This document shows positions 1,181 to 30,692 of a DNA stretch of 64,000 nt, one piece after another (within the stretch, counting starts at the first letter, position 1; each line of letters opens with the position of its first letter). The notes under the pieces were generated by a model. The model worked only from the letters and a program-made list of their open reading frames with translations, did not search any database and was not told where the DNA came from. A program made the position numbers and the translations under genes. The DNA is from a virus (lineage: Duplodnaviria; Heunggongvirae; Uroviricota; Caudoviricetes): IMG/VR virus record IMGVR_UViG_2795385649_000011; one strand, 5' to 3'.

Positions 1181-1269
1181 GGAGGCGTGCCAGAGCGGCC
1201 GAATGGGACTCACTGCTAATGAGTTGTCCCCTTTACGGGGGACCGGAGGTTCAAATCCTCTCGCCTCCG
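1181..1269 (+). tRNA. tRNA-Ser (anticodon GCT), type II with long variable arm
   Basis: Acceptor GGAGGCG/CGCCTCC, D-arm AGCGGCCGAA, anticodon stem ACTCA/TGAGT with loop CTGCTAA, long variable arm, T-arm GGAGGTTCAAATCCTCT. Folded by hand. Confidence 0.85.
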
Positions 1270-1317
1270 CGTCGGTCTGCAGGCCAAACCTGTTGACCTG
1301 CAACAATTGAATAGTAA

Positions 1318-1390
1318 GCGCCCGTAGCTCAACGGATAGAGCATCTGACTACGGATCAGAAGGTTAGGGGTTCGAATCCCTTCGGGCGCA
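1318..1390 (+). tRNA. tRNA-Arg (anticodon ACG)
   Basis: Acceptor GCGCCCG/CGGGCGC, D-arm GCTCAACGGATAGAGC, anticodon stem TCTGA/TCAGA with loop CTACGGA, T-arm AGGGGTTCGAATCCCTT, discriminator A. Confidence 0.85.
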
Positions 1391-1664
1391 CATCCGGTCC
1401 ATCGGGGCCACTGCCGTCAGGCCGACCAGTCAACAGCCGCATTGGGGACACCCCCAGTGCGGCTGCATACTTTTCAACCTCAGCCAGGTCGATGGGGTAC
1501 TCGCCTGAGAGCCGCCGCGACATGCTCGCGGTGTTCGTCTCCAGCATCTTGGCGAACTTGGCCTGAGAGATGCGCTTCTCCCCGAGCAGCCCCCGGATTC
1601 GGCGGGCCACCGTCTGGGACAGGGTCTCGTTCGGAACCGAATACAACGTACTCATAGCGCTCAT
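1356..1664 (-). CDS. XRE-family helix-turn-helix transcriptional repressor (phage cI-like); the C-terminal 35 nt overlap the tRNA-Arg 3' end
   Basis: 102 aa; HTH segment ISQAKFAKMLETNTASMSRRLSG; divergent from a Cro-like gene. The C-terminal codons run into the tRNA, as expected across an att core. Confidence 0.6.
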   Translation of the reverse strand: MSAMSTLYSVPNETLSQTVARRIRGLLGEKRISQAKFAKMLETNTASMSRRLSGEYPIDLAEVEKYAAALGVSPMRLLTGRPDGSGPDGPDVRPKGFEPLTF

Positions 1665-25646: not shown

Positions 25647-26392
25647 CCGTAGAATTCGATGCTGTGAACGGGCCAACCAACGCGTCTCCCGTCTGGGCGA
25701 GAGAGTCGTTCGTGAACGCGTTCTGGGTCGCGACCGGCGAATCACCCGAATGGATCGCGGCGCGCACCGATGCGCTGCTGACGCAGCTAGGAACGGATCT
25801 GGGAATCGCGCAGTGGGACATCCCGAAGGGGCACCACTGGGAGACTTGGGCTGGGCCCAGCGAGGCATTGGCCGACATCGTTCGGAGCTGCCCGGTGCGC
25901 GAAGCACTCCCTGACGGCGCCAGCGGCGATGCTCTCCCCAGGGAGGGGTACTCGATCGTCCTGAAGGGCGTCGGTCCTGCCATCACTGCCAAGGTCTTCA
26001 TCGGTGCGGGGTCTATCGGTCTCGGCGGGAGACTGCCGGCGCACAACCTCCACATCGACCTGACCGAGACCGCGCCGGGCGGCGTCTCTAGCGAGGTTGG
26101 CGACAAGGTGTGCGCCGCTGTGGCTTCAACCTGGCAGCCCGCCACTTTCACCCTCACTGATCTTGCGGCAATGCGCCTTGCTCGGCGCAACAATTGGAAG
26201 ATCGGTGCCGGATACCGCACCTGGATCAGCAAGGAAGTCGGCGAGATTGACCATCTCGTTGACCTTCTCACAAAGACCGAGCTGGCCGGGGGCACCCTGA
26301 TCTCCGCGCCCGACGACTGGCCCGCTACGCGCGTCGTGGAGGCGGTCACCGCGACCCTCCGCGAGAACGGCCTAGACGAAGTACCTCACTGA
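25643..26392 (+). CDS. Hypothetical protein, candidate immunity protein to the upstream toxin-like gene
   Basis: 249 aa ORF, ATGA-coupled to the toxin-like gene and last gene before the non-coding RNA block. The immunity role is inferred from position only. Confidence 0.45.
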   Translation: MTVEFDAVNGPTNASPVWARESFVNAFWVATGESPEWIAARTDALLTQLGTDLGIAQWDIPKGHHWETWAGPSEALADIVRSCPVREALPDGASGDALPREGYSIVLKGVGPAITAKVFIGAGSIGLGGRLPAHNLHIDLTETAPGGVSSEVGDKVCAAVASTWQPATFTLTDLAAMRLARRNNWKIGAGYRTWISKEVGEIDHLVDLLTKTELAGGTLISAPDDWPATRVVEAVTATLRENGLDEVPH

Positions 26393-26550
26393 GCTGGCAC
26401 CGATATTCGGTAGCCAGGTCGAGGGCCTCGACGGCATACTTTCCCCGGTACGGGAGTCACCTTCCAGCGAATCAACATTTCCTCAAAAAATATGCCCTGA
26501 ACAGGCATTACTGAGGTATAGTTCTTGGCGTAGTCAACAAAAACATGGAT

Positions 26551-26722
26551 GGCGTGAGCAGGACGCGAGTCGGTTATCTGAAAATCATCAGATCGCGGGT
26601 TCGAATCCCGCCGGGCTGCTTGAAAGAGCTTCGGGCTTTCATCGGGCGGAACGTGGCAGAGCGGCCGAATGCATTGATCCAAGATCAACGCCGGTAAGCA
26701 CCTCACACGCCCACGCCATCCC
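26551..26722 (+). ncRNA. YrlA-like Y RNA copy 1 (Ro60-binding stem plus an enlarged tRNA-like module containing a type-II tRNA-like D-arm)
   Basis: 5' GGCGTGAGCAGGACGCGAGTCGGTTATC pairs with 3' CCGGTAAGCACCTCACACGCCCACGCC. Internal T-arm GCGGGTTCGAATCCCGC and D-arm-like GTGGCAGAGCGGCCGAATGC, which matches tRNA-Ser at 1181. Confidence 0.5.
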
Positions 26723-26739
26723 GGATACAACTTCACATT

Positions 26740-26878
26740 GATGATGCGAGCAGGACGCAGGTCGGTTACCACTTCTAATGGAGAGGTCGCGGGTTCGAGT
26801 CCCGTCAGCCGCGAAAGTGGTTGTAGCTCAGTCGGTAGAGCGCTTACCCCCGGTCAGCACACACACGCCCGCATCATC
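26740..26878 (+). ncRNA. YrlA-like Y RNA copy 2 (best-formed copy)
   Basis: Terminal stem GATGATGCG/CGCATCATC plus GAGCAGGACGCAGGTCGGTTACC vs CCGGTCAGCACACACACGCCCG; T-arm GCGGGTTCGAGTCCCGT; 7-bp acceptor-like stem CAGCCGC/GTGGTTG closed by GAAA; D-arm TAGCTCAGTCGGTAGAGCG. Confidence 0.6.
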
Positions 26879-26896
26879 CCCAAGGCTTCGTAGTAG

Positions 26897-27044
26897 ATGG
26901 TGTGAGCAGGACGCAGGATCGGTTATCGCATCTGGAGCGGGTGGTCGCTGGTTCAAATCCAGCTGCGGGCGCGTAGTGCGTCCGTATAGCTCAGCTTGGT
27001 AGAGCACCTAAAACACCGGTCAGCAATCACACGCCCGCACCACC
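26897..27044 (+). ncRNA. YrlA-like Y RNA copy 3
   Basis: GATGGTGTGAGCAGGACGCAGGATCGGTTATC vs CCGGTCAGCAATCACACGCCCGCACCACC; T-arm GCTGGTTCAAATCCAGC; acceptor-like stem CGGGCGC/GCGTCCG closed by GTAGT; D-arm TAGCTCAGCTTGGTAGAGCA. Confidence 0.55.
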
Positions 27045-27076
27045 TACGCGAATCATCAATAACTCCATAGCTTTTC

Positions 27077-27202
27077 GATGTGAGCAGGACGCTCGGTCGG
27101 TTATCACTCAATTGGTAATGCAGGTTCGACCCCTGTCGCTCGCGCCTCGGTGCGGGTGTAAAAGCGAAATCCCGGTCAGCACATACACGCCCACATCACC
27201 CC
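27077..27202 (+). ncRNA. YrlA-like Y RNA copy 4 (degenerate tRNA-like module)
   Basis: GATGTGAGCAGGACGCTCGGTCGGTTATC vs CCGGTCAGCACATACACGCCCACATCACC; T-arm GCAGGTTCGACCCCTGT; GC-rich stem CGCTCGCGC/GTGCGGGTG closed by CTCG; no clear D-arm. Confidence 0.45.
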
Positions 27203-27216
27203 GAACCCCCTTTTGG

Positions 27217-27294
27217 CGCGAGCAGGACGACGGTCGGTTACCCCAACCTCGAAACTGGATGAACCCCGGCGGTCACTCACACGCCCGCGCCACC
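27217..27294 (+). ncRNA. Minimal Y RNA-like hairpin copy 5 (Ro-binding stem only, no tRNA-like module)
   Basis: GGCGCGAGCAGGACGACGGTCGGTTACC pairs with CCGGCGGTCACTCACACGCCCGCGCC across a 23-nt loop; it ends 22 nt before the rsr start. Confidence 0.45.
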
Positions 27295-27315
27295 TAACCC
27301 AGCAAGGAGCTCACG

Positions 27316-29016
27316 GTGGACGTTCTATCCTCGATCAGCACGCGGCGCACCCCTCAGGCCCAGAAGGCGGACCCGCGCCAGGTCAAGAACGCCGCCGGGG
27401 GCTACACCTTCCAGGCCGACGACTGGACCCGGCTCCACCGATTCCTGACCCTCGGCACGACCGGCGGCACCTACTACACCTCCGCCGAGGACCTCACCCG
27501 CGACGCCGCCGATGTCGTGATCCGGCTCGCCGCAACCGATCCCGTCACCCTCGTGCAGAAGATCGTTGAGGTCTCCGAGGCCGGACGCGCCCCCAAGCAG
27601 AACCCGGCCCTGTTCGCGCTCGCTATCGCTTCGGCCTCCGAGAACGTGGAAGGCCGCCGTGCCGCCGCCGCCGCACTGCCCCGAGTCGCGCGCACCGCCA
27701 CCCACCTGTACCTGTTCACCAAGTACATGGAGCAGTTCCGGGGCTGGGGACCGGCGATGAAGCGCGCCGTCTCCAGCTGGTACCTGGACAAGCCCGTGGA
27801 CCGGCTCGCCTACCAGCTGGTCAAGTACCGGCAGCGTGACGGCTGGACCCACCGCGACATGCTCCGGCTCAGCGGCCCCGCCACCAGCGACCCCGCACGC
27901 CGCATGGCGTTCAACTGGGCTGTCGGCAAGGGGCTCAACGACTACAACTGGAAGCAGCCGCTCCTCACTCCGGAGCAGCTCAAGGCCGGAGAGCGCAACC
28001 CCGCTCTACCGAAGCTGCCCAATGTGGAACTGGCTGACGGGCACCCGCTTGCCATCATCGCGGACTACGAAGCCGCGCAGCGTGCCACCACCGTCAACGA
28101 GTGGCTGGCGATCATCCGCCGGGGCAACGGCCTACCGTGGGAGGCGTTCCCCGACAAGGCCCTCACCGAGCCTGCGATCTGGGAGGCGCTGATCGAGCAC
28201 GGCCTCCCGCAGACCGCCCTCATGCGGCAGCTGCCCCGCCTAACCCGCCTCGGCGTGCTGAACGGTCAGCTCGGCAGCCGGGTCTCCGCGCAGCTCCAGG
28301 ACACAGACCGGCTACGAAAGGGCCGCGTCCACCCGATCAATGTCCTTGTCGCACAGCGCACCTATGCCTCTGGGCGTTCTGCGCGCGGTGAGTCCACCTG
28401 GACTCCGAACCGCCGCATCGTTGACGCGCTCGACGCCGCGTTCTACAACGCCTACGGCGCCGTCGAGCCCTCGGGTAAGCGGACCCTGCTGGCACTGGAC
28501 ATCTCCGGCTCCATGAGCGCCGCGATCTCCGGTATGCCGCTGACGTGCCGCGAGGCCGCCGCCGCGCTCGCACTGGTGACCGCCAACGTGGAGCCCAACC
28601 ACGACATCATCGGGTTCACCGCCGGGGCCGGTGGGAGCTTCCGCTCATCAGGGATCACGGAGTTGGACATCACGCCGCGCCGCCGCCTCGATGACGTGTG
28701 CCGATACACCGCAGGCCTCCCTATGGGCGCTACCGACTGCGCGCTCCCCATGATCTGGGCGAAGGCGCAGCTTCGCCCCTACGACGCCATCGTGATCCTC
28801 ACCGACAACGAGACCTGGTACGGGGGTATCCACCCGCACCAGGCTCTCACCGAGTACCGGAACAAGCTCAGCCTGGACACCAGCCTGATGGTGGTCGCGA
28901 TGACCGGCGGTCGGCAGACCATCGCAGATCCTTCGGACCCGCGCCAGCTCGACGTGTCCGGGTTCGATAGCGCTGTACCGCAGCTCATCTCGGACTTCGC
29001 CCGAGGTGACCTGTAA
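27316..29016 (+). CDS. rsr: Ro60 ortholog Rsr: TROVE-domain RNA-binding protein with C-terminal vWA (MIDAS) domain
   Basis: 566 aa; N-terminal TROVE-like region; C-terminal vWA with MIDAS motif LLALDISGSMS...T...TD; AAGGAG RBS before the GTG start. Directly downstream of the five Y RNA-like genes. Confidence 0.7.
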   Translation: MDVLSSISTRRTPQAQKADPRQVKNAAGGYTFQADDWTRLHRFLTLGTTGGTYYTSAEDLTRDAADVVIRLAATDPVTLVQKIVEVSEAGRAPKQNPALFALAIASASENVEGRRAAAAALPRVARTATHLYLFTKYMEQFRGWGPAMKRAVSSWYLDKPVDRLAYQLVKYRQRDGWTHRDMLRLSGPATSDPARRMAFNWAVGKGLNDYNWKQPLLTPEQLKAGERNPALPKLPNVELADGHPLAIIADYEAAQRATTVNEWLAIIRRGNGLPWEAFPDKALTEPAIWEALIEHGLPQTALMRQLPRLTRLGVLNGQLGSRVSAQLQDTDRLRKGRVHPINVLVAQRTYASGRSARGESTWTPNRRIVDALDAAFYNAYGAVEPSGKRTLLALDISGSMSAAISGMPLTCREAAAALALVTANVEPNHDIIGFTAGAGGSFRSSGITELDITPRRRLDDVCRYTAGLPMGATDCALPMIWAKAQLRPYDAIVILTDNETWYGGIHPHQALTEYRNKLSLDTSLMVVAMTGGRQTIADPSDPRQLDVSGFDSAVPQLISDFARGDL

Positions 29017-29018
29017 CG

Positions 29019-29453
29019 ATGGGCAGGGTCGGCGGCCCCGCGCCGCGCCCCTGCGCGTCGTGCCCCTACCGGGAGGACGTACCCAGCGGCGTGTGGCATG
29101 CCACCGAGTATCAGAAACTCATCGCCTACGACGGCCCCACCTCGGAGCAGCCGCCCGGCCTGTTCCTGTGCCACCAGACGGACGCCGCCGACGCAGCGGC
29201 CCGGCTTTGTGCGGGCTGGGTCGGCTGCCACGGCGGCGAGGAACTACTTGCGATACGCATCGGCGCGGCCACGGGCGCGCTGTCTCCCGAAGACGTACAG
29301 GCCGCATTCGAATATGTGAGCCCTGTCCCGCTGTTCGAGTCAGGCCGTGACGCAGCAGAGCACGGCATCTTCGAGATCGAAGACCCCGGAGAGGAAGCCA
29401 TCACCGCGATCGAGAAGATATCCCGCCGCCGCGTGGACATCAGGGGACGTTGA
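29019..29453 (+). CDS. Hypothetical Cys-rich protein downstream of rsr
   Basis: 144 aa; CASCPYREDVPSG...CHQTDAADAAARLCAGWVGCHGG. Confidence 0.4.
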   Translation: MGRVGGPAPRPCASCPYREDVPSGVWHATEYQKLIAYDGPTSEQPPGLFLCHQTDAADAAARLCAGWVGCHGGEELLAIRIGAATGALSPEDVQAAFEYVSPVPLFESGRDAAEHGIFEIEDPGEEAITAIEKISRRRVDIRGR

Positions 29454-29671
29454 TGGACCCGAGGGCACAGCAAGCCCGCGAGCACCACCGGCTGGCCGGG
29501 GAAGAGCGCGACTCCGCCAGCCAGCACCGAAGCCAGCGCGACCGGCTCGTACGGGAACTCTGGACGAACGAGCGCGAGAAGTGGACCCACGCCACTCTCG
29601 CCACCGCCGTGAAGTGCAGCCCCCAACTCATCCAGAAAATCATCGACGGTAGAACGGCCACCTCCCGATGA
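29450..29671 (+). CDS. Hypothetical small protein
   Basis: 73 aa ORF with overlap coupling. Confidence 0.35.
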   Translation: MMDPRAQQAREHHRLAGEERDSASQHRSQRDRLVRELWTNEREKWTHATLATAVKCSPQLIQKIIDGRTATSR

Positions 29672-29838
29672 GTAGCGGCCCTTTCCATATCGTGAACCGG
29701 CTCAACGGGAAGCACGTTGGCCCGTTCACGACTGAAACGGACTGCGCGCTAGCGAAAACCATTGCTACACCGGACTGGACAACGGGAATTGTCATGGACA
29801 AGAAGCAATTCAAGAAGCACTTGGAGCGTGGACTGTGA
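29668..29838 (+). CDS. Hypothetical small protein (56 aa)
   Basis: ATG 29668, stop 29836-38 overlapping the next GTG start. Confidence 0.3.
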   Translation: MSSGPFHIVNRLNGKHVGPFTTETDCALAKTIATPDWTTGIVMDKKQFKKHLERGL

Positions 29839-30692
29839 GTACAGAAGCACGCCACGGCACGGAGCGGCACCGCGCTATCGCGGACGAGAACACGATTCTT
29901 CGTGGGCAGGTCGGCTCCGGCCTGCATGGTGTCACGACCGGCGCCGACGACCGCGACGAAATGGGCATCTGCATCGAACCTCCCGAGGCCGTAATCGGTT
30001 TGGAGAAGTTCGAGCAGTACATGTACCGCACCCAACCGGACGGCGCCCGCTCCGGCCCCGGCGACCTCGATCTGTGTGTCTACAGCCTGCGGAAGTGGAC
30101 ACGGCTGGCCGCCAATGGCAATCCCTCAGTGCTGCTGATGCTTTGGATACCCGACAATGAGCTGACGGTGAAAAGCCAACTCGGCGCCGAACTTCAGGCA
30201 GCCTCGGAGATGTTCGTCACCACGCAGGCTGGACAGAAGTTCTTGAGCTACTTGAACTCTCAGCGTGAAGGACTCGAAGGTACCCATCACCGGCACACCA
30301 ACCGGCCCGAACTCATCGAACAGTACGGTTTCGACACCAAGTACGCGTATCACGCCCTGCGCCTCGGCATGCAGGGTATCCAGCTCGTCACGGAGAGGAA
30401 GCTGCACCTGCCGATGGTCAAGGCCCATCGTGATGCGCTGCTCCGCGTTCGGCGCGGCGAGACCTCGCTCCCCGAGGTGAAGAGCTGGCTCGCGGATCTG
30501 ACCTGGAGTCTGGAGCACTTCATCTCGACCGAGCCTCTGCCGGATACCCCGGACTGGGTTCGGATCAACACGTGGTTGGTTGATATGTACCAGCGGCACT
30601 GGCGTACTCGCGGTACCAGGTCCGAAGCCCGACTCTCCGGCGCGATCCGAAACGCACACAACATCGCCGTCAGTCGAAGTAGATGGCGATGA
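29835..30692 (+). CDS. Pol-beta-superfamily nucleotidyltransferase with helical C-terminal domain
   Basis: N-terminal NTase motif GQVGSGLHGVTTGADDRDEMGI (GS...[DE]x[DE]); 285 aa. Confidence 0.55.
   Translation: MSTEARHGTERHRAIADENTILRGQVGSGLHGVTTGADDRDEMGICIEPPEAVIGLEKFEQYMYRTQPDGARSGPGDLDLCVYSLRKWTRLAANGNPSVLLMLWIPDNELTVKSQLGAELQAASEMFVTTQAGQKFLSYLNSQREGLEGTHHRHTNRPELIEQYGFDTKYAYHALRLGMQGIQLVTERKLHLPMVKAHRDALLRVRRGETSLPEVKSWLADLTWSLEHFISTEPLPDTPDWVRINTWLVDMYQRHWRTRGTRSEARLSGAIRNAHNIAVSRSRWR

What the first reader, a model, noticed from the sequence alone, without database searches (positions are those of the whole stretch)
27217..27294. Minimal Y RNA copy that is only the Ro-binding stem-loop
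Copy 5 keeps both conserved stem motifs (GGCGCGAGCAGGACGACGGTCGGTTACC pairing with CCGGCGGTCACTCACACGCCCGCGCC) but has only a 23-nt loop between them, with no T-arm, D-arm or acceptor-like stem. It would bind Rsr without carrying a tRNA-like effector module. It may act as a decoy or regulator, or as a leader or attenuator element for rsr, given that it ends 22 nt before the start codon and just upstream of the AAGGAG RBS.
Basis: inference. Interest (0 to 1): 0.6.

Follow-up and report, generated by a model that had tools for sequence, protein, structure and literature searches.

The report
Short hairpin Y RNA before rsr
The last of five Y-RNA-like units in front of a prophage Ro60 (rsr) gene is a real, conserved 79-nt hairpin that keeps only the shared Ro-binding stem, and such arm-less units next to rsr are common in Actinobacteria and their phages, so it is an ordinary new member of a known class.

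Summary
It carries both stem motifs found in the four upstream YrlA-like units, has a 23-nt apical segment and no T or D arm, and ends 11 nt before AAGGAG and 23 nt before the rsr GTG.

It is under selection. Orthologues sit at the same place in four diverged (pro)phage lineages, with compensatory stem changes. Of 80 rsr loci scored, mostly actinobacterial chromosomes, 23 have a plain hairpin of 100 nt or less as the unit nearest rsr. A covariance model built only from chromosomal examples finds copy 5 as the best hit in the window (49.9 bits, E 5e-8). The split stem covaries strongly (16 of 18 pairs across 150 units).

It is best read as a hairpin-type Y RNA. [quoted passage not shown] It is probably co-transcribed with the array and rsr, excised, and bound by Rsr.

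The attenuator idea has no support: there is no terminator and the RBS is not sequestered. A cis autoregulatory role is not excluded.

Novelty: new member of a known kind. Interest is low to moderate.

The parts
27214..27292 (+). Copy 5: a 79-nt hairpin-type Y RNA unit that has the Rsr-binding stem module only.
   Evidence: MFE fold. Full-length CM hits of 75.3 bits with R1 and 49.9 bits, E 5e-8, with the independent model R2.
27214..27223 (+). 5' strand of the basal helix: UGGCGCG, a bulged A, then GC. It pairs with 27283-27292.
   Evidence: Basal pairs covary across 15 minimal units and 150 units. The helix is lengthened by covarying pairs in orthologues L001 and L029.
27229..27242 (+). GAC-G-GUCGG helix strand followed by the invariant UUACC. 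It contains GACGACGG, a one-mismatch match to the published GNCGAAN0-1G motif.
   Evidence: TCGGTTAYC occurs 5 times in the window against 0.47 expected. Invariant columns in A3. Near-invariant U.G wobble at 27234/27269. Motif definition from PMC4201824.
27243..27265 (+). Apical 23-nt segment, in place of the roughly 60-100 nt tRNA-like module of copies 1-4. It has a weak 4-bp apical helix and an 8-nt loop, UCGAAACU.
   Evidence: This is the most variable part among orthologues.
27266..27292 (+). 3' strand of the stem: CCGGC-GUC, the internal loop ACUCACA, then CGCCCGCGCCA.
   Evidence: YACACGCCCRC occurs 5 times against 0.38 expected. Pairing.
27304..27309 (+). The rsr ribosome-binding site, AAGGAG.
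   Evidence: Sequence. Unpaired or only weakly paired in folds.
27316..29016 (+). rsr, encoding a Ro60 orthologue with TROVE and vWA_Ro60 domains.
   Evidence: Pfam 6.8e-50 and 3.5e-56. PHROG 850, RNA-binding protein. 67% identical to M. smegmatis Rsr.
26547..27201 (+). Copies 1-4 of the array. Copies 2 and 3 carry T and D arms (YrlA-like), copy 4 carries a T arm only (YrlB-like), and copy 1 is atypical.
   Evidence: CM hits at 26740-26879, 26896-27045 and 27074-27201. Copy 1 was delimited by eye and was not hit by the CM.

Best explanation
Copy 5 is a functional hairpin-type Y RNA gene, the fifth and rsr-proximal unit of a prophage-borne Y RNA array.

Proposed mechanism:
1. It is transcribed by read-through from a promoter upstream, as part of one precursor with copy 4 and probably with rsr. 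This is inferred from the 12-nt and 23-nt spacers, which hold no promoter or terminator.
2. The precursor is processed into a discrete RNA of about 80 nt. This is inferred by analogy with M. smegmatis YrlA/YrlB and D. radiodurans Yrn1/Yrn2, which are cut from polycistronic precursors.
3. Its split stem is bound by the co-encoded Rsr ring. The stem comprises the basal helix, the GC pairs, the internal loop, and the GUCGG/CCGGC helix with its U.G wobble followed by GGUUA. The shared module is shown here. Binding is inferred.
4. Because it has no tRNA-like effector module, the resulting particle would occupy or gate Rsr without tethering whatever partner the tRNA-like units recruit. That would give the phage a second kind of Ro particle. 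This step is inferred.
For: - Both stem motifs are array-specific and far above chance.
- Copy 5 aligns in register with copies 1-4 along both stem strands.
- Orthologues of copy 5 occur at the same position, directly 5' of the rsr RBS, in four sequence types of (pro)phage whose Rsr is 72-99% identical. Substitutions concentrate in the apical segment. Stem changes are compensatory or wobble-preserving: A-U to G-C in the middle helix, G-C to G-U, and C-G versus G-C in the extended basal helix of L001 versus L029.
- In 80 scored rsr loci (mostly actinobacterial chromosomes, plus six phage or prophage loci), the rsr-proximal unit lacks both arm motifs in 38, and 23 of these are plain hairpins of 100 nt or less.
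- Fifteen such hairpins share an 18-bp structure with 10 covarying pairs. 93.7% of cells are paired against 79% in shuffles (0 of 500 reach the observed value) and 35-44% in slid controls.
- The same stem holds across 150 units of all classes, with 95.7% paired and 16 of 18 pairs covarying.
- Model R2, built without the window or any prophage sequence, finds copy 5 as the top hit in 64 kb (49.9 bits, E 5e-8).
- Model R1 also hits M. smegmatis YrlA and YrlB (54.6 and 56.3 bits). Both were shown to be Rsr-bound and processed from one precursor (PMC4201824).
- Published precedents for arm-less Y RNAs are S. Typhimurium YrlB, D. radiodurans Yrn2 and the Thermus phage phiLo single-hairpin Yrl2, which binds phiRo60 in EMSA.
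Against: - There are no expression, end-mapping or binding data for this element or its orthologues.
- The fold-energy z-score is only -1.7.
- There is no Rfam hit.
- GACGACGG departs from GNCGAAN0-1G at one position.
- The 15 sequences of alignment A3 were chosen partly with a duplex-energy filter, and A4 is fitted to the model. Both inflate the pairing percentages, though they inflate compensatory pair-type diversity less.
- The close apposition to the RBS is equally compatible with a cis role.
Confidence: 0.62

Rival explanations
1. Cis-acting autoregulatory leader. The hairpin stays on the rsr mRNA. When Rsr is in excess it binds this Y-RNA mimic 11 nt upstream of the Shine-Dalgarno sequence and either hinders 30S loading or stabilises the mRNA 5' end. 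The logic is that of ribosomal-protein operons that use rRNA mimics.
For: The hairpin carries the full shared stem module. It must lie on the same primary transcript as rsr, because the spacers are too short for a promoter and no terminator is found. Within the (pro)phage group the stem-to-SD distance stays at about 9-13 nt although the spacer sequence differs.
Against: Across 80 loci the distance from the last unit to the start codon is mostly 16-90 nt (median 40), and some genera insert another strong hairpin. That is not what a steric mechanism predicts. In M. smegmatis the equivalent rsr-proximal unit accumulates as a discrete Rsr-bound RNA (PMC4201824). The RBS is not occluded by RNA structure.
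Confidence: 0.17
2. Non-functional remnant. Copy 5 is a decayed duplicate of a T-arm-bearing unit such as copy 4 that has lost its insert. It is tolerated but not used.
For: The apical loop CC-UCGAAACU-GG (UUCGAAC in L029) resembles an eroded T loop and is not conserved among close orthologues. Tandem arrays generate such debris.
Against: The stem is retained with compensatory changes in four lineages whose Rsr is down to 72-76% identical. Analogous plain hairpins recur at the same position in many chromosomal loci of distant genera, including Gordonia, Nocardia, Granulicoccus and Propionibacteriaceae.
Confidence: 0.07
3. Transcription attenuator or terminator that controls read-through from the Y RNA array into rsr.
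For: It is a GC-rich hairpin immediately upstream of a gene.
Against: No U-run follows the stem; the sequence there is CACCUAACCCAGCAAGGAG. The terminator scan finds nothing on the + strand in 26300-29500. No alternative anti-terminator pairing appears in folds. The same stem occurs in the internal units of the array, where termination would abolish the downstream units.
Confidence: 0.03

Closest known systems
Mycobacterium smegmatis YrlB (Chen et al. 2014, PMC4201824)
   Same: It is the rsr-proximal unit downstream of YrlA on the same strand (L118 about 2348-2462, with the rsr GTG at 2501). It has the same stem motif family: GGGCCGGACGUCGAUCGGUUAUC ... CCGGUUGGCACCUCACACGCUCGC. It lacks a D arm. 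It was shown to be Rsr-bound and cut from a precursor shared with YrlA.
   Different: YrlB is about 110 nt and keeps a T arm plus an extra hairpin. In the window that architecture matches copy 4. Copy 5 is an additional, further reduced unit of 79 nt with no arm.
Salmonella Typhimurium YrlB and Deinococcus radiodurans Yrn2
   Same: Both are Rsr-bound Y RNAs without a tRNA-like module. They are described as long hairpins with a small loop, are encoded next to rsr, and are co-transcribed with the tRNA-like Y RNA.
   Different: They come from different lineages and have different stem sequences. No sequence homology was tested or expected. In Salmonella they lie 3' of rsr inside the rsr-yrlBA-rtcBA operon. 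Their loops are described as pyrimidine-rich, which holds only for the 5' half of the copy 5 apex.
Thermus phage phiLo Yrl2 (PMC12135203)
   Same: It is a phage-encoded single-hairpin Y-like RNA upstream of the phage Ro60 gene. It binds phiRo60 1:1 in EMSA.
   Different: The phage and host are unrelated. It was defined by a CGAA motif in a bulge, whereas copy 5 has CGAC. Homology was not tested.
YrlA family (Rfam RF02553)
   Same: The 5'/3' stem module is shared and the gene is linked to rsr. Copies 2 and 3 of the same array hit RF02553 at 34-38 bits.
   Different: Copy 5 lacks the D arm, T arm and acceptor-like stem that define YrlA, and it gives no RF02553 hit.
Metazoan Y RNAs (for example the Y3 stem fragment crystallised with Xenopus Ro60)
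   Same: The ends pair into a bulged helix that is sufficient for Ro binding, and there is no tRNA-like domain. This rests on established knowledge cited in PMC4201824 and PMC12135203.
   Different: They are Pol III genes with an oligo-U/La tail. Their conserved GGUCCGA helix is only loosely similar to the GUCGGUUA found here.

Membership tests
YrlA (Rfam RF02553) | A tRNA-like module made of a T arm, a D arm and an acceptor-like stem. | tested here: not met
   No RF02553 or tRNA hit on 27212-27295 at E<=10. No GTTCRA or TAGCTCA/GGTAGAGC motif. Only 23 nt lie between the stem strands.
YrlA (Rfam RF02553) | Encoded within about 4 kb of rsr on the same strand. | tested here: met
   The unit ends 23 nt upstream of the rsr GTG on the + strand.
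Bacterial Y RNA in general | The 5' and 3' ends pair into a long stem that carries the GNCGAAN0-1G-type motif near the 5' end. | tested here: inconclusive
   The stem is present and covarying. GACGACGG at 27227-27234 matches the motif with one mismatch. The motif is loosely defined, and copies 1-4 and M. smegmatis YrlA/B also deviate by 1-2 positions.
Bacterial Y RNA in general | Bound by Rsr, with accumulation that depends on Rsr. | not testable with these tools
   This needs immunoprecipitation, EMSA and Northern blots in a strain lacking rsr.
Hairpin-type Y RNA (S. Typhimurium and M. smegmatis YrlB, Yrn2, phiLo Yrl2) | A single long hairpin with a small apical loop and no tRNA-like domain. 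| tested here: met
   MFE and centroid folds agree. Consensus structure of 15 homologous minimal units.
Hairpin-type Y RNA (S. Typhimurium and M. smegmatis YrlB, Yrn2, phiLo Yrl2) | Shares the Rsr-binding stem with the co-encoded tRNA-like Y RNA. | tested here: met
   Alignment of copies 1-5. Models R1 and R2 hit copies 2-5 and M. smegmatis YrlA and YrlB.
Hairpin-type Y RNA (S. Typhimurium and M. smegmatis YrlB, Yrn2, phiLo Yrl2) | A pyrimidine-rich apical loop. | tested here: inconclusive
   27238-27250, UUACCCCAACCUC, is 10 of 13 pyrimidines, but the whole 23-nt segment is only 11 of 23.
Hairpin-type Y RNA (S. Typhimurium and M. smegmatis YrlB, Yrn2, phiLo Yrl2) | Processed from a polycistronic precursor together with the other Y RNA(s). 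| not testable with these tools
   Only indirect evidence is available: a 12-nt spacer to copy 4, and no promoter or terminator hits.
Intrinsic attenuator or translational riboswitch-like leader | A terminator hairpin with a U tract, or an alternative structure that sequesters the RBS. | tested here: not met
   No + strand terminator in 26300-29500. The RBS is free in folds of 27200-27360.

The most novel reading that the evidence does not exclude
Plain-hairpin Y units that abut the rsr ribosome-binding site are Y-RNA mimics retained in the rsr 5' UTR. Through them free Rsr would feed back on its own translation or mRNA stability, setting the Rsr:Y RNA ratio. This would be an autoregulatory circuit not yet described for any Ro60 orthologue.
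Probability: 0.15. Interest if true: 0.6.

Novelty: new member of a known kind. Interest (0 to 1): 0.3.

Why it matters
It adds a prophage example, and with the survey a recurrent actinobacterial class, to the hairpin-type Y RNAs. These RNAs escape the Rfam YrlA model and genome annotation.

The survey also shows that one 18-bp split stem is the common denominator of all unit types, which suggests that it is the Rsr handle. Its marks are a near-invariant U.G wobble and an invariant GGUUA.

The covariance model built here (R1, or the independent R2) could annotate second and third Y RNAs that Chen et al. 2014 said 'eluded bioinformatic discovery'.

It does not change how Ro/Y RNPs are understood unless the cis-autoregulation reading proves true.

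Tried and rejected
- The Rfam gathering search finds only two tRNAs in the window. The E-value search gives sub-threshold YrlA hits on copies 2 and 3 and none on copy 5.
- The first genome-contig scan, with the single Rsr protein, found nothing. It was repeated with an alignment.
- The degenerate DNA pattern for minimal units returned 30 loci in viral contigs. Thirteen of them were chance matches without rsr and were discarded.
- My heuristic duplex-based unit finder was noisy, with overlapping and false units. Only its rsr-proximal units of 100 nt or less without a T-arm motif were taken as candidates, and twelve of them plus three hand-delimited units became alignment A3. The locus counts come from CM hits instead.
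- An attenuator or terminator, and RBS sequestration, were considered and rejected.
- Pairing of the apical loop with the SD was considered and rejected: the loop has CCUC, not CUCC.
- An extended GGUU/AACC apical helix was considered and rejected, because those G residues are already used in the covarying CGG/CCG helix.
- The two Ro60/Y RNA reviews (PMC10870794, PMC6542706) and the supplements of Chen et al. 2014 are not held.
- No paper on Ro-like genes in M. abscessus prophages was found.
- Copy 1 is not detected by either CM at E<=10.

Full report
**1. The observation**

The region 26547-27292 (+) holds five tandem units. Each has a 5' strand of the form ...GAGCAGGACGnnnGTCGGTTAYC and a 3' strand of the form CCGGnnnnCAnnCACACGCCCRC.... 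TCGGTTAYC and YACACGCCCRC each occur exactly five times in the 64-kb window. All are on the + strand, they alternate, and all lie inside the array. Expectation is 0.47 and 0.38, and 0 of 100 shuffles reach five.

RNAfold gives one hairpin spanning 27214-27292 at -30.1 kcal/mol, and MFE and centroid agree. The z-score is only -1.7, so thermodynamics alone is not persuasive.

AAGGAG lies at 27304-27309. The GTG at 27316 opens a 566-aa ORF with TROVE and Ro60-vWA domains. Its N-terminus aligns with 16 other mycobacterial and mycobacteriophage Rsr proteins.

Copy 5 has no T-arm or D-arm motif, no Rfam YrlA or tRNA hit even at E<=10, and no ARAGORN call. Copies 2 and 3 give sub-threshold YrlA hits (34-38 bits against a gathering score of 69). 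Copy 4 has a T arm only.

**2. Context**

The neighbourhood is phage-like. It has small overlapping + strand ORFs and PHROG hits. About 77% nucleotide identity links it to the M. abscessus prophages prophiGD43A-5 and prophiT37-1, and Rsr is 93-99% identical in five IMG/VR contigs. DUF6283 and an RlaP-type nucleotidyltransferase follow rsr.

Copy 5 starts 12 nt after copy 4 and ends 23 nt before the rsr start. No sigma-70-like promoter and no + strand terminator is found in 26300-29500. Copy 5 therefore has to be transcribed by read-through from upstream, and rsr most likely lies on the same primary transcript. This is an inference from the sequence.

**3. Orthologues**

A degenerate pattern for a short unit recovered it in (pro)phage contigs in four sequence types. 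Every case where downstream sequence is available lies directly 5' of an AAGGAG/AGGAG site and a [G/A]TGGACG rsr start. Rsr identity to the window ranges from 72% to 99%.

In the alignment of these orthologues:
- The two stem strands are conserved and the apical segment is the most variable part.
- Stem differences preserve pairing. The middle helix changes from A-U to G-C between the window and the M. abscessus type. G-C changes to G-U in L006 and L007.
- The basal helix is lengthened by 5-6 further pairs in L001 (GCGGGU/GCCCGC) and L029 (GGGGGU/GCCCCC), which differ by a C-G to G-C swap.

This pattern argues against a decaying remnant.

**4. Wider survey**

An Rsr alignment retrieved 80 actinobacterial chromosomal rsr loci. 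The M. smegmatis locus was fetched separately. There, the published probe sequences identify YrlA at about L118:2198-2334 and YrlB at about 2348-2462, 38 nt before the rsr GTG. Both have the same stem motif family as the window units.

Fifteen plain short units from prophages, mycobacterial MAGs, Nocardia, Gordonia, Granulicoccus, Propionibacteriaceae and others align into an 18-bp split-stem consensus. Ten pairs show double compensatory changes. 93.7% of cells are paired, against 79% in column shuffles (0 of 500 reach the observed value on any of the five measures) and 35-44% when partners are slid. One caveat applies: twelve of the fifteen sequences came from a finder that uses a duplex-energy filter, and three were delimited by hand.

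A covariance model of this alignment (R1) found 175 units in 88 loci. Almost all are on the rsr strand and upstream of rsr, and they include M. smegmatis YrlA and YrlB. Across the 150 best hits the stem is 95.7% paired and 16 of 18 pairs covary. The C-G, G-C, G-C and U.G wobble pairs next to GGUUA are near-invariant. That alignment is fitted to the model, so the percentages lean high. Copy 5 has all of these invariants.

As an independent test, a second model was built only from 11 chromosomal minimal units, with no window or prophage sequences (R2). It finds copy 5 as the best hit in the window (49.9 bits, E 5e-8, full length). Copies 2-4 are the only other hits.

**5. How common the architecture is**

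The 80 loci scored are 74 of the chromosomal loci, M. smegmatis, two prophage loci and three phages. Scoring used the CM hits.

| rsr-proximal unit | Loci |
|---|---|
| Full T+D unit | 11 |
| T arm only, as in M. smegmatis YrlB | 31 |
| No arm motif | 38 |
| No arm motif and 100 nt or less (subset of the 38) | 23 |

- Some loci repeat the window's tiering of a TD unit, then a T-only unit, then a plain unit (L053, L001, L006, L044).
- Mycobacteriophages Bxz1 and Sparky also carry plain units of 78-82 nt upstream of their Ro gene.
- The gap from the last unit to the start codon has a median of 40 nt and is mostly 16-90 nt.
- Promicromonospora and some Nocardia loci interpose another strong hairpin.

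A plain stem-only unit next to rsr is therefore a recurrent arrangement and not a peculiarity of this window.

**6. Mechanism**

The best-supported reading is that copy 5 is a hairpin-type Y RNA. It would be co-transcribed with the array and probably with rsr, excised, and bound by Rsr through the shared stem. Lacking a tRNA-like effector module, it would form a second kind of Ro particle.

What is shown here:
- the conserved, covarying stem;
- its identity with the stem of RNAs that were experimentally Rsr-bound in M. smegmatis;
- positional conservation.

What is inferred:
- processing;
- Rsr binding;
- the gate- or decoy-like consequence.

The literature supports the analogy. Chen et al. 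[quoted passage not shown] In Salmonella they lie inside the rsr-yrlBA-rtcBA operon. Thermus phage phiLo encodes a single-hairpin Yrl2 upstream of its Ro60 gene, and Yrl2 binds that protein in vitro.

**7. Rivals**

- A cis-acting autoregulatory leader is not excluded. The hairpin is on the rsr transcript and sits 11 nt from the SD. Against it, the spacing is not conserved across loci, RNA structure does not sequester the RBS, and the M. smegmatis counterpart accumulates as a discrete RNA.
- A transcription attenuator is rejected. There is no U tract and no terminator call, and the same stem occurs inside the array.
- A dead remnant is unlikely given the compensatory evolution and the recurrence. 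The apical CC-UCGAAACU-GG (UUCGAAC in L029) may still be a vestige of a lost T loop. It is not conserved in the nearest relatives.

**8. Novelty and verdict**

The element is real and very probably functional, but it belongs to a known kind. It is not a member of YrlA (RF02553), because the defining tRNA-like module was tested and is absent. It fits the hairpin-type Y RNAs exemplified by YrlB, Yrn2 and Yrl2.

What is modestly new is the documentation that such arm-less units are widespread next to actinobacterial and actinophage rsr genes, and that one split stem is common to all unit types.

Interest is 0.3. The most novel reading still open is Rsr autoregulation through a retained Y-mimic leader, with probability about 0.15.

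Noticed in passing
L001:2998-3076 (MW584167.1 26001-26079, prophiGD43A-5): This stretch is annotated as tRNA-Thr(tgt), and ARAGORN also calls it. It is in fact the 5' stem plus T arm of the first YrlA-like unit of that prophage's array (CM hit at L001:3001-3139). It is probably a mis-annotated Y RNA.
   Followed up: partly
window 26547-27201: Four further Y-like units precede copy 5. Five in tandem exceeds the most found in any of the 80 scored rsr loci (at most 4 CM-detected units; the M. abscessus prophage relative L001 shows five by eye). Copy 1 (26547-26721) has a T arm but an atypical second half, and neither covariance model detects it.
   Followed up: partly
window 29019-29453 and 29835-30692: DUF6283 and an RlaP-type (RNA repair pathway, Pol-beta family) nucleotidyltransferase follow rsr on the same strand. 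This is an RNA-repair-style gene neighbourhood inside a prophage-like region.
   Followed up: no
window 26492-26524: This is the only AT-rich stretch of the region (GC 0.48-0.49). It contains a hairpin flanked by an A-run, scored as a minus-strand terminator-like site, and a TATAGT about 25 nt before copy 1. It is a candidate promoter region for the whole array.
   Followed up: no
L055:793-1061 (-) and L058:395-524 (-): In two Promicromonospora loci the stem model also hits units on the opposite strand 1.4-2 kb upstream of rsr. This suggests additional Y-like genes that are not co-oriented with rsr.
   Followed up: no
A4 alignment columns 26/180 and 27-29/177-179 (window 27234-27237 with 27266-27269): Across 150 Y units of all classes, the U.G wobble followed by C-G, G-C and G-C and then the unpaired GGUUA is almost invariant (142-149 of 150). 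This is a candidate core of the Rsr recognition site in the actinobacterial lineage.
   Followed up: partly
L062, L076, L077, L082, L085, L089, L093, L101, L107, L111, L112 (about 110-118 nt units just upstream of rsr): Nocardioides, Cellulomonas and related loci have a different rsr-proximal unit. It has the same stem, but the insert is two or three short GC-rich hairpins (for example CCCUCGGAGGAGGG) rather than tRNA-like arms. This may be another effector module.
   Followed up: no
window 1181-1391: tRNA-Ser(gct) and tRNA-Arg(acg) genes lie near the left end of the window. They may be host genes at a prophage boundary or phage-borne tRNAs.
   Followed up: no
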